Assembly (NCBI GenBank): GCA_021513695.1
Contig: CP084166.1
Location: 2,272,001-2,336,000, forward strand
Source: Candidatus Heimdallarchaeum aukensis
GTDB taxonomy: Archaea > Asgardarchaeota > Heimdallarchaeia > Heimdallarchaeales > Heimdallarchaeaceae
DNA: 64,000 bases
Direction of reading: 5' to 3'
The notes below the pieces were generated by a model that had not been told where the DNA came from, ran no database searches, and was given only the letters and a program-made list of their open reading frames with translations. Both the position numbers and the translations under genes were made by a program. Positions 11,133 through 59,292 of this stretch are shown here, one piece after another (positions within the stretch are counted from its first letter, which is position 1; each line of letters opens with the position of its first letter).

Positions 11133-11209
11133 GGCCTCGTGGCTTAGTTAGGTAAAGCAACGGACTCTTAATCCGTCGATCAGGGGTTCAAATCCCCTCG
11201 AGGTCACCA
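11133..11209 (+). tRNA. tRNA-Lys(CTT), 77 nt with encoded CCA
   Basis: Manual fold: acceptor GGCCTCG/CGAGGTC; D stem GCTT/AAGC; anticodon stem ACGGA/TCCGT with loop CTCTTAA (anticodon CTT at 11167-11169); T arm AGGGG-TTCAAAT-CCCCT; discriminator A + CCA. Confidence 0.9.
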
Positions 11210-11347: not shown

Positions 11348-11455
11348 GGGCTTGTAGCTCAGCTAGGTAGAGCAGCAGGCTTTTAAGCTTTCTGCGAGCC
11401 ATGCAAAAGCGCTGACACCTGTCGGCCATGGGTTCGAATCCCATCAAGCCCGCCA
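11348..11455 (+). tRNA. tRNA-Lys(TTT) with a ~31-nt intron in the anticodon loop (approx. 11386..11416). Encoded CCA.
   Basis: Acceptor GGGCTTG/CAAGCCC; D stem GCTC/GAGC; anticodon stem GCAGG...CCTGT interrupted after position 37; anticodon TTT at 11382-11384; T arm ATGGG-TTCGAAT-CCCAT; discriminator G + CCA. Confidence 0.85.
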
Positions 11456-11556: not shown

Positions 11557-12606
11557 ATGAAAACTACTCATGAAATTATATACTCCTCTTCTAGCTCTCT
11601 TCCTTCTATTCTTTCAAGTAGTGTTAATATTGTTGTCACTTCTCCCCCTTATCCAATGATTGAGATGTGGGATGAGCTTTTTTTTAATCTTAATCCTGAA
11701 ATCAAAACTTCTTTAACCTCTTATCCATCTTTAGCTTTTGAGCTTATGCATTTAGAGCTTGACAAAACTTGGAATGAAATTGATCGTCTTCTCAAACCTG
11801 GTTCGATTGTTTGCATAAACATTGGTGATGCAACGCGAAAGATTGATGGTAACTTTGCTCTTTATTCTAATAGTTCTCGAATAATCAGAAAATTTCTTGA
11901 ATTGGGCTATTTTTGTTTACCTTCTATTCTGTGGCGCAAACAAACTAACTCTCCCACCAAATTTATGGGGTCAGGCATGCTTCCTCCCGGTGCCTATGTA
12001 ACTTTAGAACATGAGCACATCTTGCTTTTCCGTAAAGGTTCTAAGCGAGAGTTTAATTCTTCCGAATCTAAATTGAATCGTCGTCGTAGCGCTTATTTTT
12101 GGGAAGAACGTAACCTTTGGTTTTCTGATATTTGGGAGTTTAAAGGCGTAAGTCAAAAACTAAATTCTGAAGTTTTGCGCTCTCGTAGTGCTGCATATCC
12201 TTTTGAGTTAGCTTTTCGCCTTATTAACATGTTTTCAGTTCAAGGTGATACAGTTCTTGATCCTTTTTTAGGTACGGGAACAACTACTCTAGCAGCTATT
12301 ACTTCATGTCGTAACAGTATTGGTGTAGAAATTGATAAAAATTTCAAGGCTATTATTCTCGAAAGCATAAGAAAGGTAAAAGATTTTGCAAATGGTTATA
12401 TTGATAATCGTTTGCAGGCACATCTGGCTTTTGTTAAACAAAAAGAAGAAACACATTCCTTTAAGCATCGTAACTCTATTTATGGTTTTCCTGTTATGAC
12501 TGCACAAGAAACTGATCTTTACTTTCCTAAAATTAAAAATGTTAAAATAAAAGATGAATCGCTTTTCGAAATTATTTATAAAAATAAAGAAAAGATTTAT
12601 TCGTAA
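11557..12606 (+). CDS. DNA methyltransferase, beta-class amino-methyltransferase (N4-cytosine or N6-adenine); no cognate restriction enzyme nearby
   Basis: Motif IV SPPY (VVTSPPYP) precedes motif I (DPFLGTGTT). Atypical codon usage (TCT/CTT/CGT-rich). Confidence 0.8.
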   Translation: MKTTHEIIYSSSSSLPSILSSSVNIVVTSPPYPMIEMWDELFFNLNPEIKTSLTSYPSLAFELMHLELDKTWNEIDRLLKPGSIVCINIGDATRKIDGNFALYSNSSRIIRKFLELGYFCLPSILWRKQTNSPTKFMGSGMLPPGAYVTLEHEHILLFRKGSKREFNSSESKLNRRRSAYFWEERNLWFSDIWEFKGVSQKLNSEVLRSRSAAYPFELAFRLINMFSVQGDTVLDPFLGTGTTTLAAITSCRNSIGVEIDKNFKAIILESIRKVKDFANGYIDNRLQAHLAFVKQKEETHSFKHRNSIYGFPVMTAQETDLYFPKIKNVKIKDESLFEIIYKNKEKIYS

Positions 12607-42537: not shown

Positions 42538-42880
42538 AGATGCTGAGCTGATAGCAACAGCTAAAGTGGGAAGCTAGGGCTCTCCTGTAACCGGAAACGC
42601 TCTATATGCCGGGCTGAAAACTGCTGCTGAGGGCTCGTCGAGGAAGATACGCTCTGTCTGGAAAGCGTCGAAGCATCGCCCCATGAGATTGTGCACACCC
42701 GAGGCGCCTTTGGAGGAAGGTGTTAGAAGGGTTGAGATCAAAAAGGGTCAGGCACGGAAGTGAGCAGCCCTAAGATCGATGCATGATGCCCATGGCAAGC
42801 GGTGTGGAGCTTAAGGGCAGTAAAACGGCTTCCAAAACGGGTTCGAACAGCAGGCTGCTAAGATTAGTTCAGCAGTCTTG
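42538..42880 (+). ncRNA. ffs: Signal recognition particle RNA (7S/SRP RNA). Boundaries approximate.
   Basis: A GC-rich (~55%) island in AT-rich DNA. Domain IV/helix 8 motif GGUCAGGcaCGGAAGugAGCAGCC. Alu-domain-like CCUGUAACCGGAAAC. Ends in an oligo-T tract at 42881-42889. Confidence 0.65.
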
Positions 42881-50118: not shown

Positions 50119-50571
50119 CTAAATTTTTACCGAAGCTATTACAGTTTCAAAGTTTATGTCTTCGAATTTATTAATAATTGAATATCCTTCACTATTAATT
50201 GGTAAGTTTGAAATAAATAAAGCATGTATTCTTCTTCCTTCTGGTTTTACTCTTGTAATACGTTCGATGAAATCTTTTATGTCTTCAATAGGAACAAAGC
50301 TGTCTCTATAAAACCTACATTCACCTAAAATAAGTTTTTGTTCATTAAAAGCTACAAAATCAAAAATGAGTATCTCGTTCAGTGTCCAACTTACCCATTG
50401 ATATCCATCGTTTTCATAATCATACATAGGGATATCGAAACCTGATTTTTTTAATTCCTCAACACATAGTTTTACAACATCTGGATGAGCCTTACCAGGG
50501 ACAAAGTAACTTAATTTAGGTAATATATTTGATATTTTTAGTACTAGTTGTGTTGTGAGATTCATCCTCAT
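50119..50571 (-). CDS. Hypothetical protein (possible PD-(D/E)xK-like fold)
   Basis: 150 aa. An ILIFDFVAF...ILGECRF segment loosely resembles a nuclease core; unassigned. Confidence 0.3.
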   Translation of the reverse strand: MRMNLTTQLVLKISNILPKLSYFVPGKAHPDVVKLCVEELKKSGFDIPMYDYENDGYQWVSWTLNEILIFDFVAFNEQKLILGECRFYRDSFVPIEDIKDFIERITRVKPEGRRIHALFISNLPINSEGYSIINKFEDINFETVIASVKI

Positions 50572-53657: not shown

Positions 53658-53769
53658 AATTAGTAGTCATTGATTACAACCATAGTTTAGTAGAAAAAAA
53701 CTTTGTGTTCTATTAAATAGTTTAAAATAGGGAAAGTTAAATAAGACTTTGAGTAGATTCTTATGCCTT

Positions 53770-54010
53770 CTATCGAGGACTTGCTAGAGGTTGTTTATGA
53801 CAAACGATGAAAGCAAGAGCAAAAAGAAGGCTACAGCCTATCATATACGGGCTCTTTACCAAGTTGAGTGTGTCACTCAGAACAATGAGGTTGAGTCAAC
53901 CCTGATAGGCTACATTGGGTTCTCCTGAGGAGCTCTGCTAGCAGATGTGGGGTTGTCCCAAAGATGAAGCTTAGTGTTAGCCTTAGGGGAACCCTTTAGT
54001 TATATTGAAA
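53770..54010. ncRNA. Candidate structured noncoding RNA of unknown class (GC-enriched spacer with multiple perfect short hairpins)
   Basis: GC ~45% against a ~30% background. Hairpins gagtgTGTcactc, ggttgaGTCaacc, ctccTGAggag, tgggGTTGtccca. No ORF. Strand undetermined. Confidence 0.25.
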
Positions 54011-54057
54011 CAGAAAAATTAAAAATAGGTTGGAATTAAGCAATTCAGTAGAAAATA

Positions 54058-54132
54058 GGGGTAGTAGTCTAGTGGTATGACAACGCCTTCACGCGGCGTA
54101 GGTCGCAGGTTCAATTCCTGCCTACCCCACCA
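54058..54132 (+). tRNA. tRNA-Val(CAC), CCA encoded
   Basis: Acceptor GGGGTAG/CTACCCC; anticodon stem ACGCC/GGCGT with loop TTCACGC (anticodon CAC 54090-54092); T arm GCAGG-TTCAATT-CCTGC; discriminator A. Confidence 0.9.
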
Positions 54133-54140
54133 CTAACAAT

Positions 54141-55121
54141 TTGTTGAGAAATCAAATGTCAGAATCAAATACTGATCACGGATTTATTGACCTTTTTTCG
54201 GGAGCTGGAGGTTTTAGTTCTGGGTTTAGACTTGCTGGCTTTAAAGAATTACTCGCTATTGAAAGAGATCCCTCTGCCTTAAGAACATACAACTTGAACC
54301 TGCCTGATGCAATTTGTATAAATGATGATATACGAAATATTCATTCCTTAGAAATAGAACAAAAATGTTCTCAAAAACCAACAGTTATATTAGCTTCTCC
54401 TCCTTGTGAACCATTCACTGCTGCAAATACAAAACGAAAGGAAACTGCGTGGGAAAGGTTTTTTGAGGACCCTCAAGGTGATTTAATTTTTCATGCAATA
54501 AGGATAATCAAAGACTTGAATCCCGATTTTTTTGTTATTGAAAATGTTGTGCCTATTATAGATGGTGAAGGAAAAGATATTATTCTCGAAGCTTTTGCAG
54601 ACTCCAAATTCCAAGACATCCATTTTAATGTTATTCGTGCAGAAAAACACGGTTCTCCTTCTTCTAGAAAACGTGTTTTTATTTCTAACATTAATCTTAA
54701 TTTAGAGAAAAAAAAGACTGTTACTGTTGGTCAAGCTTTATCTGGTCTTCAGGATCCTTCCTATCCAAATGATCTTCCCAATCATTTTTTATCTCCTGTT
54801 CCTGATAAGATTCAAAAAAGAATTCATCAAATCAAGCCTGGGCATGCAGCTGTTTACTTTGAAGGAGCTTTAAGTGAAAAAGTAAATTGGGTCAAGCTTG
54901 ATAAAGACAAAGTTTCCCCTACTGTGATGGGGAAATCTCGATTTATTCATTTTCATCAAGATAGAGCCTTAACTGTACGTGAACATGGACGATTGATGAC
55001 CTTTCATGATGATTTTAAATTTACTGGAACGATTGAGGAAATGTATAACCAAGTTGGAGAGGCAGTTCCTCCATTAATTTCTTATTTGATCGCAGAAGAG
55101 ATAAAAAAACAAATTAGTTGA
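54141..55121 (+). CDS. DNA (cytosine-5)-methyltransferase (Dcm family), orphan
   Basis: Motif I FIDLFSGAGGF; motif IV PC (ASPPCEPFT); motif VI ENV; motifs IX/X at the C-terminus. Starts 9 nt after tRNA-Val. Confidence 0.85.
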   Translation: MLRNQMSESNTDHGFIDLFSGAGGFSSGFRLAGFKELLAIERDPSALRTYNLNLPDAICINDDIRNIHSLEIEQKCSQKPTVILASPPCEPFTAANTKRKETAWERFFEDPQGDLIFHAIRIIKDLNPDFFVIENVVPIIDGEGKDIILEAFADSKFQDIHFNVIRAEKHGSPSSRKRVFISNINLNLEKKKTVTVGQALSGLQDPSYPNDLPNHFLSPVPDKIQKRIHQIKPGHAAVYFEGALSEKVNWVKLDKDKVSPTVMGKSRFIHFHQDRALTVREHGRLMTFHDDFKFTGTIEEMYNQVGEAVPPLISYLIAEEIKKQIS

Positions 55122-55174
55122 AAGTATCAATTTTTCCAAAACATTTAATTTTTCTATAGTAAATTTCTTTTAGA

Positions 55175-57847: not shown

Positions 57848-58504
57848 CTATCTAATGTATATCTCTCTAAATTTCAAAACCTTTTCTTCACTTTGGATAG
57901 CTAATCTTGCAGCATGAGAAAAAAGTTTTTCAACATTTTCAGATGATAATGCAGATGTTTCTATATAATCAAAATTATTTTCTTTTGCATATTCTTCTGC
58001 TTTTTCTCTGTCTACAGCTCTTGCATTTTTTAGATCACTCTTATTTCCACATAAAATAATTGGAATTTCTGAACATTTTTTCTTTATTTCACTAACCCAA
58101 AAGGATACATCATCAAATGTTGACGTTTTAGTAATATCATAGACTACGATAGCAACTTTAGCTCCTAGAAAATATTTTTGTCTAACAAATCCAAAAATTT
58201 CTTGAGCTCCTGTATCCCATAAACTAATTCTAACATTAACATCATCGGTGAGTATATTTTTAGACAAATTTTCATTTAATTCGTCCTTTGTTAAGGAAAG
58301 ACTTTTCGTTAACCAACTCACACCCATTGTTGGGATATAAGAATATGAGAAAGTGTTCATAGCATATCTTCTTGCCAATGATGTTTTTCCTACAAAAGCT
58401 GAACCAATTGTTATAATTTTATACAAATGTCGTTCTATCATTTTTATCTCCAAAATATTTCTATTAGTTTTCTTTCTATGTTGATACTGCTTAAACGCCT
58501 CCAA
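57848..58504 (-). CDS. Rab/Ras-like small GTPase (eukaryote-like)
   Basis: G1 GSAFVGKTS; switch I YIPTMGV; G3 LWDTGAQE; G4 GNKSDL; G5 ETSAL. Confidence 0.8.
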   Translation of the reverse strand: MEAFKQYQHRKKTNRNILEIKMIERHLYKIITIGSAFVGKTSLARRYAMNTFSYSYIPTMGVSWLTKSLSLTKDELNENLSKNILTDDVNVRISLWDTGAQEIFGFVRQKYFLGAKVAIVVYDITKTSTFDDVSFWVSEIKKKCSEIPIILCGNKSDLKNARAVDREKAEEYAKENNFDYIETSALSSENVEKLFSHAARLAIQSEEKVLKFREIYIR

Positions 58505-59292
58505 TCATCGAGAATCAAAGGCTTTGTATTCGTATTGATTAATTCTCTAAACTGTTCTGGTTCAAAATACTTACTAGTGATATCAACAAATTCTGAAATG
58601 AAATTAAGGAATGTCTCCTTTATTTGGCTATAATCTTCAATTTCTGTTATTTCTGTTGAGTTTACTTCATCTCTTATAAAGAACCCTTCTTTGTCAAAGA
58701 AAAATAACTCGTCAATTTTTTTGTAATCATTTATTAATTTATTAACATCATTTCTTAGTAACTGATTAATTTTTTTCCTTTTCGATTGATCTTCCACAAC
58801 TTTTTGTATTCCTGAACATACTGAATTTATTATATTCTCAAATATTTCTAATAAATTTCTGAACTCAATATCTTTGATGTGATTAGATATAATAGCGTTC
58901 ACTTTGAAAACTTCGGAAATCACCATAGATGGCGATAAGGGTTTTTTTACTTGTTTAATTTCATCAAGGAAATTTTTAGCAGTTTCTTTATCATAGATGT
59001 CAAAAGAGTATAGAAAGAGATTCATTAAAAAGAATAATTGAGAATACGCCATTCCTTCTTTTTGCTCTTGGGAGATTAGTACAAATATGAAATCATACTT
59101 CTTTTCAACTAAAACAATTGTTTTCTTAAAAATTATTTCTCTTAATGGTCCTAATTCTCTTTGTTCTCCCATCTTTATGAATTTTAATAGTTCCGCAAAT
59201 TGGTCAGGTTTAAGAATTAAATTTTCACTATTAGGCGTGTCTGTAAAGATAGTATCGTAGTTATTTTTGTTGAGTATGTAAAAATTAACCAA
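58444..59292 (-). CDS. Hypothetical protein with an N-terminal longin/roadblock-like domain; candidate partner (GEF-like?) of the adjacent Rab-like GTPase
   Basis: 282-aa ORF whose 3' end overlaps the GTPase start by ~60 nt. N-terminal beta-beta-alpha-beta-beta pattern (IIFKKTIVLVEKKYDFIFVLIS). Confidence 0.35.
   Translation of the reverse strand: MVNFYILNKNNYDTIFTDTPNSENLILKPDQFAELLKFIKMGEQRELGPLREIIFKKTIVLVEKKYDFIFVLISQEQKEGMAYSQLFFLMNLFLYSFDIYDKETAKNFLDEIKQVKKPLSPSMVISEVFKVNAIISNHIKDIEFRNLLEIFENIINSVCSGIQKVVEDQSKRKKINQLLRNDVNKLINDYKKIDELFFFDKEGFFIRDEVNSTEITEIEDYSQIKETFLNFISEFVDITSKYFEPEQFRELINTNTKPLILDDWRRLSSINIERKLIEIFWR

What the first reader, a model, noticed from the sequence alone, without database searches (positions are those of the whole stretch)
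54058..55121. Second tRNA-adjacent orphan DNA methyltransferase: Dcm-type C5-methyltransferase 9 nt after tRNA-Val
A complete C5-methyltransferase (FxGxGG, PC, ENV motifs) begins 9 nt downstream of tRNA-Val(CAC), with no endonuclease, Vsr or integrase gene nearby. Two different orphan methyltransferases, each immediately 3' of tRNA genes in the same window, is an unusual recurring arrangement. It could mark ancient integration sites or tRNA-linked epigenetic regulators.
Basis: partly seen in the sequence, partly recalled or inferred. Interest (0 to 1): 0.5.

Follow-up and report, generated by a model that had tools for sequence, protein, structure and literature searches.

The report
Core archaeal orphan cytosine-5 methyltransferase
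The gene after tRNA-Val is a real, complete cytosine-5 methyltransferase, but it is not a remnant of an inserted element: it belongs to an old, vertically inherited family found across Archaea, and its place behind this tRNA is conserved in related Heimdall-group genomes.

Summary
tRNA-Val(CAC) lies at 54058-54132 and is followed by an intact 321-aa C5-methyltransferase. Its start is most likely ATG 54156, 23 nt after the tRNA, not TTG 54141. No restriction enzyme, Vsr or integrase lies within about 10 kb.

- The tRNA 3' end has no repeat in the window.
- Composition is native.
- The closest viral relative is only 34% identical.
- The protein tree follows taxonomy.
- All eight related Heimdall-clade genomes with upstream sequence have the same tRNA-Val(CAC) upstream of the gene. 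A conserved three-hairpin H/ACA guide RNA precedes it, although the flanking protein genes differ.

The protein belongs to the known "persistent" archaeal orphan group HG2 (M.SuaII, M.Asp7I, MJ0563/MJ1200). Two members methylate CCWGG when expressed in E. coli. It is probably co-transcribed with the tRNA.

Three features of the family remain unexplained:
- tRNA genes flank it far more often than expected (25 of 80 genomes).
- In 52 of 80 genomes, though not here, a SPOUT-fold DUF2122 gene follows it directly.
- Two cofactor-pocket residues are glutamate (PCE, GEAV) instead of the usual Gln and Asn.

The other methyltransferase in the window shows no tRNA linkage in its relatives.

The parts
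53709..53998 (+). Three-hairpin H/ACA-type guide sRNA, similar to Pab40/HgcG. It is the first element of the conserved module.
   Evidence: Rfam RF00064 scores 50.5 bits, E 8e-13, below the gathering score of 77. nhmmer finds it directly upstream of tRNA-Val in all 8 Heimdall-clade loci, E 4e-21 to 2e-29. RNAalifold on 9 sequences gives three hairpins with 53 pairs, 14 of them with compensatory changes.
54008..54027 (+). Conserved A/T-rich promoter-like element (AAACAGAAAAATTAAAAATA, BRE/TATA-like) about 30-50 nt upstream of the tRNA.
   Evidence: The same AACAGAAAAAATAAATA-type element lies at the same distance in all 8 related loci. Its promoter function is inferred, not shown.
54058..54132 (+). 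tRNA-Val(CAC), with CCA encoded.
   Evidence: ARAGORN; Rfam tRNA 70.7 bits. tRNA-Val(CAC) is in the same position in L001-L006, L008 and L009.
54133..54155 (+). 23-nt spacer with no TATA-like box at a usable distance and no run of five or more T.
   Evidence: Read directly from the sequence. Relatives have spacers of 20-31 nt in 6 of 8 genomes and about 135 nt in L002 and L003. Co-transcription with the tRNA is inferred from this.
54156..55121 (+). C5-cytosine methyltransferase CDS (321 aa), a member of the HG2/'PCE' family. Catalytic Cys84 is at 54405-54407, the atypical Glu85 at 54408-54410 and the atypical Glu302 at 55059-55061.
   Evidence: PF00145 3e-46 and TIGR00675 2e-42. It is 43% identical over its full length (8e-88) to the Ignicoccus islandicus C5 methyltransferase P0210 taken to be that genome's HG2 member. 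The model has pLDDT 95.9, and its nearest folds are DNA C5 methyltransferases.
55131..55153 (+). Two T5 runs (55131-55135 and 55149-55153) directly after the stop codon. They resemble archaeal oligo-T terminators.
   Evidence: Read directly from the sequence. Terminator function is inferred.

Best explanation
The gene encodes a vertically inherited, chromosomal orphan cytosine-5 methyltransferase. It belongs to the archaeal 'persistent' group HG2, which includes M.SuaII, M.Asp7I, MJ0563 and MJ1200. By homology it flips a cytosine out of double-stranded DNA, attacks C6 with Cys84 and transfers a methyl group from SAM to C5. The target is most likely the inner C of CCWGG.

In this Heimdall lineage the gene is the last element of a conserved module: H/ACA guide RNA, tRNA-Val(CAC), methyltransferase. 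The tRNA has a conserved promoter-like element. Only 23 nt without a promoter or terminator signal separate the tRNA from the ATG, and oligo-T runs follow the stop codon. The mRNA is therefore most likely made by read-through from the tRNA promoter and released by tRNA 3' processing.

Shown: gene integrity, family membership by sequence, conserved position, and absence of mobile-element marks. Inferred: CCWGG specificity, DNA as the native substrate, and co-transcription.
For: Family and fold:
- Pfam and NCBIfam assign a C5 methyltransferase.
- The model has pLDDT 95.9 and matches DNA C5 methyltransferases at TM 0.72-0.81.
- More than 1,600 homologues of about 312-330 aa are 40-60% identical across Heimdall, Thor, Hel, Nezha, Thermoplasmata and Crenarchaeota.
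- 523 relatives occur in species-representative genomes.
- The protein is 43% identical over its full length to the Ignicoccus islandicus C5 methyltransferase P0210. That genome carries an HG2 member (cluster 254) in Table S3 of PMC10609329, which I take to be P0210.
- The target-recognition region is conserved in the family alignments.
- That paper reports CCWGG methylation by M.SuaII and M.Asp7I in E. coli.

Not mobile:
- No tRNA-end repeat.
- Flat GC content.
- Housekeeping neighbours.
- The best viral relative is 34% identical.
- The tree follows taxonomy.

Conserved module:
- tRNA-Val(CAC) is upstream in 8 of 8 clade genomes with upstream flank.
- The H/ACA RNA is conserved upstream of it.
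- Flanking protein genes are not syntenic.
- Spacers are 20-31 nt in most of these genomes.
Against: - The native substrate of this family is unsettled. MJ0563 and MJ1200 gave no clear activity on lambda DNA, and the authors doubted they are DNA enzymes (PMC2615612).
- No m5C was detected in S. acidocaldarius DNA by dot blot (PMC5809426).
- CCWGG is not depleted in the window: 44 observed against 46.9 expected. There is thus no deamination footprint of heavy methylation.
- Specificity is extrapolated across about 43% identity.
- M.SuaII and M.Asp7I themselves could not be retrieved for a direct comparison.
- Co-transcription rests on spacing and the absence of signals, not on RNA data. L002 and L003 have a spacer of about 135 nt that could hold a promoter of its own.
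Confidence: 0.62

Rival explanations
1. The enzyme's native target is RNA (tRNA, rRNA or another stable RNA) rather than DNA. On this view it is a DNA-methyltransferase fold put to RNA work, as in Dnmt2, and the CCWGG activity seen in E. coli is a side activity.
For: - tRNA genes are the immediate neighbours of the gene, or of its two-gene operon, in 25 of 80 genomes from at least 9 lineages. Density is 0.30 tRNA per kb within 500 nt, against about 0.05 per kb further out and 0.014 per kb for the control family.
- SRP RNA and H/ACA RNA genes are also neighbours.
- In 52 of 80 genomes the next gene, often overlapping the stop codon, encodes DUF2122/COG4080. This protein is predicted to have the SPOUT RNA-methyltransferase fold (PMC1829167).
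- DNA assays and native-host DNA analyses were negative or unclear.
- Motif IV is PPCxPFT, as in Dnmt2 (from memory of the Dnmt2 motif, not tested here).
Against: - Two family members produce a clean palindromic DNA motif in vivo (PMC10609329).
- Dnmt2 is a much weaker match (8e-8) than the DNA enzymes (1e-25 to 1e-27) and is absent from the top 50 fold matches.
- There is no CFT motif in the target-recognition region.
- The adjacent tRNAs differ between lineages (Val-CAC, Val-TAC, Val-GAC, Ser-GCT, Pro-CGG, Gly-GCC, Glu, Gln), so no single tRNA substrate is implied.
- Commercial lambda DNA is usually already Dcm-methylated at CCWGG (my own knowledge). This could explain the negative 2009 assay.
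- COG4080 lacks the catalytic residues of 2'-O-methyltransferases.
Confidence: 0.15
2. The enzyme is a C5-transferase with altered chemistry or tightly gated activity. The two pocket residues next to the transferred group are glutamates instead of Gln and Asn. It might therefore use a modified cofactor, or close its catalytic loop only under particular conditions.
For: - PCE occurs in 313 of 317 family members and GE[AS]VP in 312 of 317. E85 and E302 are invariant in a 70-sequence alignment.
- None of the 80 nearest viral C5 methyltransferases has this pair; 70 of them have PCQ and GN[AS].
- In M.HhaI, Gln82 and Asn304 line the pocket around the transferable group (PMC3526304).
- In phage CmoX the residue equivalent to E302 is Arg350, which selects carboxy-SAM (PMC12783734; alignment).
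- m5C in native host DNA is low or undetectable.
Against: - RIMS-seq read the product of two members as m5C at CCWGG.
- No natural SAM analogue with a positively charged transferable group is known to me.
- DNMT3 enzymes have Arg at the motif X position yet use SAM (from memory), so this position alone does not dictate the cofactor.
- No biochemical data exist for the E/E pair.
Confidence: 0.08
3. One reading: the methyltransferase is the remnant of a mobile element or restriction-modification system that integrated at the 3' end of tRNA-Val.
For: The position directly 3' of a tRNA gene is the classic integration site, and the gene is a Type II-like methyltransferase (PADLOC MTase_II).
Against: - No repeat of the tRNA 3' end.
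- No integrase or nuclease within about 10 kb.
- Native GC content.
- The same tRNA-gene pair occurs across a clade diverged to 53-58% protein identity.
- The family is absent from 2.9 million viral contigs above 34% identity.
- The phylogeny follows taxonomy.
Confidence: 0.02

Closest known systems
HG2 'persistent' orphan m5C methyltransferases of Archaea (M.SuaII, M.Asp7I; REBASE survey, PMC10609329)
   Same: - Same length (about 320 aa) and motif order.
- Same PCE and GE[AS]VP signature.
- 42-45% identity to the Sulfolobales, Acidilobaceae, Desulfurococcales and Thermococcus homologues. It is 43% identical to the Ignicoccus islandicus C5 methyltransferase P0210 taken to be that genome's HG2 member.
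- No restriction enzyme partner, and vertical inheritance.
   Different: - The survey described HG2 in Crenarchaeota, Methanococci and Pyrococcus. Its single Asgard genome (Lokiarchaeum B-35) lacks the group. Here the family is shown in Heimdall, Thor, Hel, Baldr and Wukong lineages.
- In the Heimdall clade the gene sits behind an H/ACA RNA and tRNA-Val, and has no adjacent DUF2122 gene.
- CCWGG specificity is untested for this protein.
MJ0563 / MJ1200 of Methanocaldococcus jannaschii, and the MJ1199 (COG4080) partner
   Same: - The PCE variant of motif IV was noted in PMC2615612.
- The association of the methyltransferase with a COG4080 SPOUT-fold gene was noted for MJ1199/MJ1200 in PMC2441816. 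I find the same pairing in 52 of 80 genomes.
   Different: The window's gene has no COG4080 neighbour, and none is detectable anywhere in the 64-kb window.
E. coli Dcm (with Vsr)
   Same: - Orphan chromosomal C5 methyltransferase.
- The family's reported target, CCWGG, is the same.
- Elsewhere in the family a small gene overlaps the methyltransferase's 3' end, as vsr overlaps dcm.
   Different: - The target-recognition domain is not homologous. NCBIfam PRK10458 matches only residues 5-135, at 57.5 bits against a cut-off of 710.
- There is no Vsr here.
- The overlapping partner in other archaea has a SPOUT fold and is not a Vsr-type nuclease.
Dnmt2 / TRDMT1 (tRNA C38 methyltransferase with a DNA-methyltransferase fold)
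   Same: C5-methyltransferase fold, small size, PPCxPFT-type motif IV, and a genomic association with tRNA.
   Different: Only weak sequence similarity (8e-8) and no CFT motif. DNA enzymes are much closer in both sequence and fold. Family members show sequence-specific DNA methylation.
Phage CmoX (PDB 8YF3), DNA cytosine C5-carboxymethyltransferase
   Same: Best-scoring solved structure by sequence (2.8e-27, full length). It shares the SPPC motif and a non-Asn residue at the cofactor-selecting position of motif X.
   Different: CmoX has Arg350 there, which binds the carboxylate of carboxy-SAM. This protein has Glu302, which would repel it. No cmoA-like gene is nearby.
tRNA-mRNA co-transcription units such as the E. 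coli thrU-tyrU-glyT-thrT-tufB operon (own knowledge)
   Same: A protein-coding gene lies directly 3' of a tRNA gene with no promoter or terminator of its own between them.
   Different: This is an archaeal system. The arrangement is inferred from sequence only, and no transcript data exist.

Membership tests
C5-cytosine methyltransferase superfamily (PF00145) | Motifs I (FxGxGG), IV (PC), VI (ENV), VIII (RxR) and X, in canonical order, with a two-domain fold | tested here: met
   PF00145 3e-46 and TIGR00675 2e-42. The motifs were read in the alignments. The model has pLDDT 95.9 and TM 0.72-0.81 to HaeIII, 3g7u, DNMT1 and CmoX.
HG2 persistent archaeal orphan m5C methyltransferases | Full-length sequence relationship to recognised HG2 members (clusters 316, 613 and 254 in Table S3 of PMC10609329) | tested here: met
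   43% identity, 8e-88, over residues 10-320 to P0210 of Ignicoccus islandicus; that genome's HG2 column holds cluster 254, and I take P0210 to be that member. 42-45% identity to Sulfolobales and Acidilobaceae homologues. M.SuaII and M.Asp7I themselves could not be retrieved.
HG2 persistent archaeal orphan m5C methyltransferases | PCE instead of PCQ in motif IV (noted for MJ0563 and MJ1200) | tested here: met
   P82-P83-C84-E85 at 54399-54410. PCE is found in 313 of 317 family members. Literature: PMC2615612.
HG2 persistent archaeal orphan m5C methyltransferases | No cognate restriction endonuclease (orphan) | tested here: met
   Pfam and PADLOC scans of neighbours between 43 and 61.6 kb find no nuclease or defence gene.
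HG2 persistent archaeal orphan m5C methyltransferases | Persistence: vertical inheritance and presence in most members of a taxon | tested here: inconclusive
   The tree follows taxonomy, and the gene is present in at least 10 Heimdall-group species genomes at a conserved locus. The fraction of Heimdall genomes that carry it could not be counted.
HG2 persistent archaeal orphan m5C methyltransferases | Methylation of the inner C of CCWGG in DNA | not testable with these tools
   Only indirect evidence is available. The target-recognition region is conserved. CCWGG is not depleted in the window, O/E 0.94.
Type II restriction-modification system | Adjacent restriction endonuclease gene | tested here: not met
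   None was found in the window neighbourhood. The DUF2122 neighbour seen in other lineages has a predicted SPOUT fold and is not a nuclease.
tRNA-integrated genomic island or prophage remnant | Direct repeat of the tRNA 3' end, an integrase, atypical composition, and patchy presence among relatives | tested here: not met
   No repeat, no integrase, flat GC, and conservation behind the same tRNA in 8 of 8 clade genomes.
Dcm-Vsr module | Dcm-type target-recognition domain and an overlapping vsr gene | tested here: not met
   PRK10458 matches only the N-terminal catalytic part, at 57.5 bits against a cut-off of 710. PDB Dcm chains match residues 9-166 only. No Vsr family hit among the neighbours.
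Dnmt2 / tRNA (cytosine38-C5) methyltransferase | Closest similarity to Dnmt2, and the CFT motif in the target-recognition domain | tested here: not met
   Dnmt2 chains score 8e-8 to 8e-5, against 1e-25 to 1e-27 for DNA enzymes, and are absent from the top 50 fold matches. There is no CFT in the sequence.
Archaeal H/ACA guide sRNA (for the upstream element at 53709-53998) | Hairpins with an internal pocket, a K-turn-like GA motif and ANA/ACA boxes, and a match to a curated family | tested here: inconclusive
   RF00064 scores 50.5 bits, E 8e-13, below the gathering score of 77. Three hairpins are supported by 14 covarying pairs. ATGA motifs and ACA boxes follow hairpins 1 and 2. The 3' box is unclear and the rRNA targets were not mapped.

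The most novel reading that the evidence does not exclude
The HG2/'PCE' family, including this gene, may be functionally tied to stable RNA rather than being an ordinary DNA epigenetic methyltransferase. It could modify tRNA or another stable RNA, possibly together with the SPOUT-fold COG4080 protein. Alternatively, its unusual Glu/Glu cofactor pocket could give a product other than plain m5C in DNA. The conserved H/ACA RNA, tRNA-Val, methyltransferase module in Heimdall archaea and the family-wide tRNA adjacency would then be signs of that function.
Probability: 0.15. Interest if true: 0.75.

Novelty: new member of a known kind. Interest (0 to 1): 0.38.

Why it matters
For the finding as stated, the result is deflationary. 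This is a core gene, not a scar of an old integration, and the 'two tRNA-adjacent methyltransferases' pattern is one conserved linkage plus one coincidence.

The wider value is modest but real:
- The enigmatic persistent archaeal C5 methyltransferase group extends into Asgard archaea, including the Heimdall lineage closest to eukaryotes.
- The family is unusually often wedged against tRNA and other stable-RNA genes.
- It usually forms an operon with a SPOUT-fold protein.
- It carries a Glu/Glu pocket that is absent from its nearest viral relatives.

These observations bear on an open question in the literature: whether these enzymes really act on DNA in their hosts, and why hyperthermophiles would keep a mutagenic m5C methyltransferase. 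They point to concrete experiments.

Tried and rejected
- **att-type repeats.** A 25-mer and a 17-mer of the tRNA 3' end, with up to 3 mismatches, and a general direct-repeat scan of 50-64 kb found nothing.
- **Deamination footprint.** CCWGG O/E is 0.94 in the window, 0.75 in 88 kb of Heimdall loci and 0.92 in 811 kb of all loci. The product words CTWGG/CCWAG show no consistent excess. This is uninformative and consistent with low methylation or efficient repair.
- **Direct retrieval of M.SuaII.** A search with a Sulfolobales MAG homologue returned only MAG proteins and Ignicoccus or Ignisphaera entries. Membership was linked through Ignicoccus islandicus instead.
- **DUF2122 elsewhere in Heimdall genomes.** The top 120 hits were all Thorarchaeota, so the question stays open.
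- **Hidden nuclease among unannotated neighbours.** The ORFs at 50119-50571 and 58444-59292 have no significant Pfam or PADLOC hit.
- **Solved structure for DUF2122.** No PDB sequence match.
- **H/ACA RNA next to the gene in other lineages.** Not found at Rfam gathering thresholds in 12 loci. SRP RNA and more tRNAs were found instead.
- **A single tRNA identity as a possible substrate.** Rejected, because the neighbouring tRNAs differ between lineages.
Full report
**What is there**

ARAGORN and Rfam place tRNA-Val(CAC) at 54058-54132 on the + strand, with CCA encoded. An open frame follows, running from TTG 54141 or ATG 54156 to the stop at 55119-55121. The product matches Pfam DNA_methylase (PF00145, 3e-46) and TIGR00675 dcm (2e-42).

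It carries all the catalytic motifs: FSGAGG, PPCE with Cys84, ENV, PSSRKRVFIS and GEAVPP. An AlphaFold2 model built on 70 homologues is very confident (mean pLDDT 95.9, pTM 0.93). Its nearest solved folds are all DNA C5 methyltransferases: 3g7u, M.HaeIII, DNMT1/MET1, CmoX and M.HhaI, at TM 0.72-0.81.

Two details need adjusting:
- The 99%-identical database protein is 321 aa, and all relatives start at an ATG. The start is therefore ATG 54156, 23 nt after the tRNA, not 9 nt.
- The window's other methyltransferase (11557-12606, PF01555) lies 101 nt after an intron-containing tRNA-Lys(TTT) at 11348-11455.

**Surroundings**

The window comes from a Heimdall-group Asgard archaeon.
- Upstream genes: SudB-like, GltD-like and a divergent GNAT acetyltransferase.
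- Downstream genes: FrhB-like, CofE, a TPR protein, a Ras-family GTPase and CDC48.
- Further upstream: an ABC transporter and a geranylgeranyl-reductase-like oxidoreductase.

No restriction enzyme, Vsr, integrase or defence-system partner is detectable. GC content is flat at about 0.33 across the gene. The tRNA 3' end has no second copy in the 64 kb, even with three mismatches, and no other notable direct repeat exists.

**Relatives**

The protein has more than 1,600 homologues at E<1e-10. Nearly all are 312-330 aa. Identity is 53-61% in other Heimdall genomes and 42-48% in Thor-, Hel-, Nezha-, Thermoplasmata, Thermococci and all orders of Crenarchaeota. A neighbour-joining tree of 81 sequences follows taxonomy: an Asgard clade containing Hel, Heimdall and Thor subclades, then TACK groups, then Thermococci. 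The best match among 2.9 million viral contigs is only 34% identical.

In every one of the eight Heimdall-clade genomes that has upstream sequence (L001-L006, L008, L009), a tRNA-Val(CAC) gene lies directly upstream on the same strand. The spacer to the ATG is 20-31 nt in six of them and about 135 nt in two. The flanking protein-coding genes are not conserved.

**A conserved three-part module**

The 400-nt GC-richer intergenic stretch upstream of the tRNA matches the Pyrococcus H/ACA sRNA family HgcG/Pab40 (53709-53998, 50.5 bits, E 8e-13, below Rfam's gathering score). nhmmer finds the same RNA directly upstream of tRNA-Val in all eight related loci (E 4e-21 to 2e-29). An alignment of nine copies folds into three hairpins with 53 pairs, 14 of which show compensatory changes.

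Between this RNA and the tRNA, every genome has the same A/T-rich element (AACAGAAAAAATAAATA type) about 30-45 nt before the tRNA 5' end. This is where an archaeal BRE/TATA promoter would sit (inference). The 23-nt spacer between the tRNA and the methyltransferase ATG has no TATA-like box at a usable distance and no oligo-T run. Two T5 runs follow the stop codon. I therefore infer that the methyltransferase mRNA is made by read-through from the tRNA promoter and freed by tRNA 3' processing. The E. coli tRNA-tufB operon is a comparable case (own knowledge).

**What family it is**

A REBASE survey of archaeal genomes (PMC10609329) defined 'HG2', a persistent orphan m5C methyltransferase. It is present in 99 of 100 Crenarchaeota, most Methanococci and Pyrococcus. 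Two members, M.SuaII and M.Asp7I, methylated C(m5C)WGG in E. coli by RIMS-seq. Table S3 of that paper puts clusters 316, 613 and 254 in HG2, and Ignicoccus islandicus carries cluster 254.

The I. islandicus C5 methyltransferase (P0210), which I take to be that HG2 member, is 43% identical to the window protein over the full length, including the target-recognition region (8e-88). Homologues from Sulfolobales, Acidilobaceae and Thermococcus are 42-45% identical.

An earlier paper noted that MJ0563 and MJ1200 have PCE rather than PCQ in motif IV. It could not show DNA methylation on lambda DNA, and suggested they might not be DNA enzymes (PMC2615612). The window protein has the same PCE. No m5C was seen in S. 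acidocaldarius DNA by dot blot (PMC5809426).

I file the gene as a new (Asgard) member of this known family. The survey contained only one Asgard genome, and that genome lacks HG2.

**Mechanism**

By homology the enzyme should flip the target cytosine, form the Cys84-C6 adduct and transfer methyl from SAM to C5. The target is most likely the inner C of CCWGG in DNA. This is inferred, not shown.

CCWGG is not depleted: 44 sites against 46.9 expected in the window, and O/E 0.92 over 811 kb of family loci. That fits low in vivo methylation or efficient repair, and does not discriminate between them. The target-recognition domain is unrelated in sequence to that of E. coli Dcm. Shared CCWGG specificity, if real here, would therefore be convergent.

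**Things about the family that remain unexplained**

1. *tRNA adjacency is a family trait.* Within 500 nt of the gene, tRNA density is 0.30 per kb. It is about 0.05 per kb at 0.5-6 kb and 0.014 per kb for 80 relatives of the window's other methyltransferase, which serve as a control. The arrangements by lineage are:
   - Heimdall: Val-CAC upstream.
   - Hel and a TACK lineage: Ser-GCT upstream, with SRP RNA next to it in L011 and L025.
   - Culexarchaeia: Ser-GCT, divergent.
   - Thermococci: Val-TAC 50 nt downstream.
   - Thor and several Crenarchaeota: a tRNA 16-85 nt beyond the two-gene operon.

2. *A SPOUT-fold partner.* In 52 of 80 genomes the gene is followed directly, often with overlapping stop and start codons, by a DUF2122/COG4080 gene of about 155 aa (PF09895, 1e-24 to 1e-31). 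Its 'RecB nuclease' label is considered spurious, and it is predicted to have the SPOUT RNA-methyltransferase fold (PMC1829167). The MJ1199-MJ1200 pairing was noted in PMC2441816. This partner is absent next to the gene in the Heimdall clade, in the two Hel genomes, the Baldr genome and Thermococci. It is not detectable anywhere in the window.

3. *A Glu/Glu cofactor pocket.* The two conserved residues that line the pocket around the transferred group in M.HhaI are Gln82 and Asn304 (PMC3526304). In this family both are glutamate: PCE in 313 of 317 members and GE[AS]VP in 312 of 317. None of the 80 nearest viral homologues has this pair. The equivalent of Glu302 in the best-matching solved structure, phage CmoX, is Arg350, which selects carboxy-SAM (PMC12783734; alignment).

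Together these keep alive a minority reading in which the family's native role involves RNA or unusual chemistry. Against that reading:
- Two members show clean DNA motifs.
- Similarity to Dnmt2 is weak.
- The neighbouring tRNAs are diverse.
- Lambda DNA is usually already Dcm-methylated (own knowledge), which could explain the old negative assay.

**Verdict**

The feature is real but ordinary in kind. It is a vertically inherited member of a described family at a lineage-conserved locus. The integration-site interpretation is refuted, and the 'recurring arrangement' in the window is half coincidence. The residual interest lies in three things: the conserved H/ACA RNA, tRNA-Val, methyltransferase module; the family-wide association with tRNA genes and a SPOUT-fold partner; and the Glu/Glu pocket. 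All three are leads for experiments on an unresolved family.

Noticed in passing
window 53709-53998 (+): Three-hairpin H/ACA-type guide sRNA related to Pyrococcus Pab40/HgcG. It scores below Rfam's gathering threshold but is conserved with covariation in nine Heimdall-clade genomes, always directly upstream of tRNA-Val(CAC). Its rRNA targets were not mapped.
   Followed up: partly
L043:6938-7420, L057:6978-7457 and 50 other loci: A DUF2122/COG4080 gene (about 155 aa) directly follows, and often overlaps, the methyltransferase gene in 52 of 80 archaeal genomes. It is annotated 'RecB-family nuclease' but predicted to have the SPOUT fold. It is absent from the Heimdall clade loci and from the window.
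   Followed up: partly
window 54408-54410 (Glu85) and 55059-55061 (Glu302): Glutamates replace the Gln of motif IV (PCQ) and the Asn of motif X (GN) that are nearly universal in C5 methyltransferases. The pair is present in about 99% of 317 family members and in none of the 80 nearest viral relatives. Its functional meaning is unknown.
   Followed up: partly
window 11557-12606 (+): The N4/N6-type DNA methyltransferase (PF01555; PADLOC MTase_II, 4e-146) belongs to a very widespread family. At least 538 metagenome relatives were found; the 80 closest retained are 52-60% identical (one at 90%). It may be another 'persistent' orphan enzyme. Its relatives are not next to tRNA genes.
   Followed up: partly
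window 11348-11455 (+): tRNA-Lys(TTT) with a 13-nt intron. Default ARAGORN missed it; Rfam and ARAGORN in intron mode found it. It lies 138 nt after tRNA-Lys(CTT) at 11133-11209.
   Followed up: yes
window 42554-42861 (+); L011:4364-4685; L025:5359-5689: Archaeal SRP RNA lies in the window, 11 kb from the methyltransferase. In a Helarchaeote and a TACK genome, SRP RNA and tRNA-Ser(GCT) sit right beside the homologous methyltransferase. This hints at an old linkage of the gene to a cluster of stable-RNA genes.
   Followed up: no
window 57848-58504 (-) and 58444-59292 (-): A Ras-family small GTPase gene (PF00071, 2e-45) overlaps by 61 nt an upstream 282-aa ORF that has only a faint longin-domain hint (PF19036, E 0.03). 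This may be a eukaryote-like GTPase plus regulator pair, typical of Asgard archaea.
   Followed up: no
window, whole: CTWAG is the most under-represented NNWNN palindrome in the window (60 observed, 100 expected, O/E 0.60). CCWGG is at expectation.
   Followed up: no
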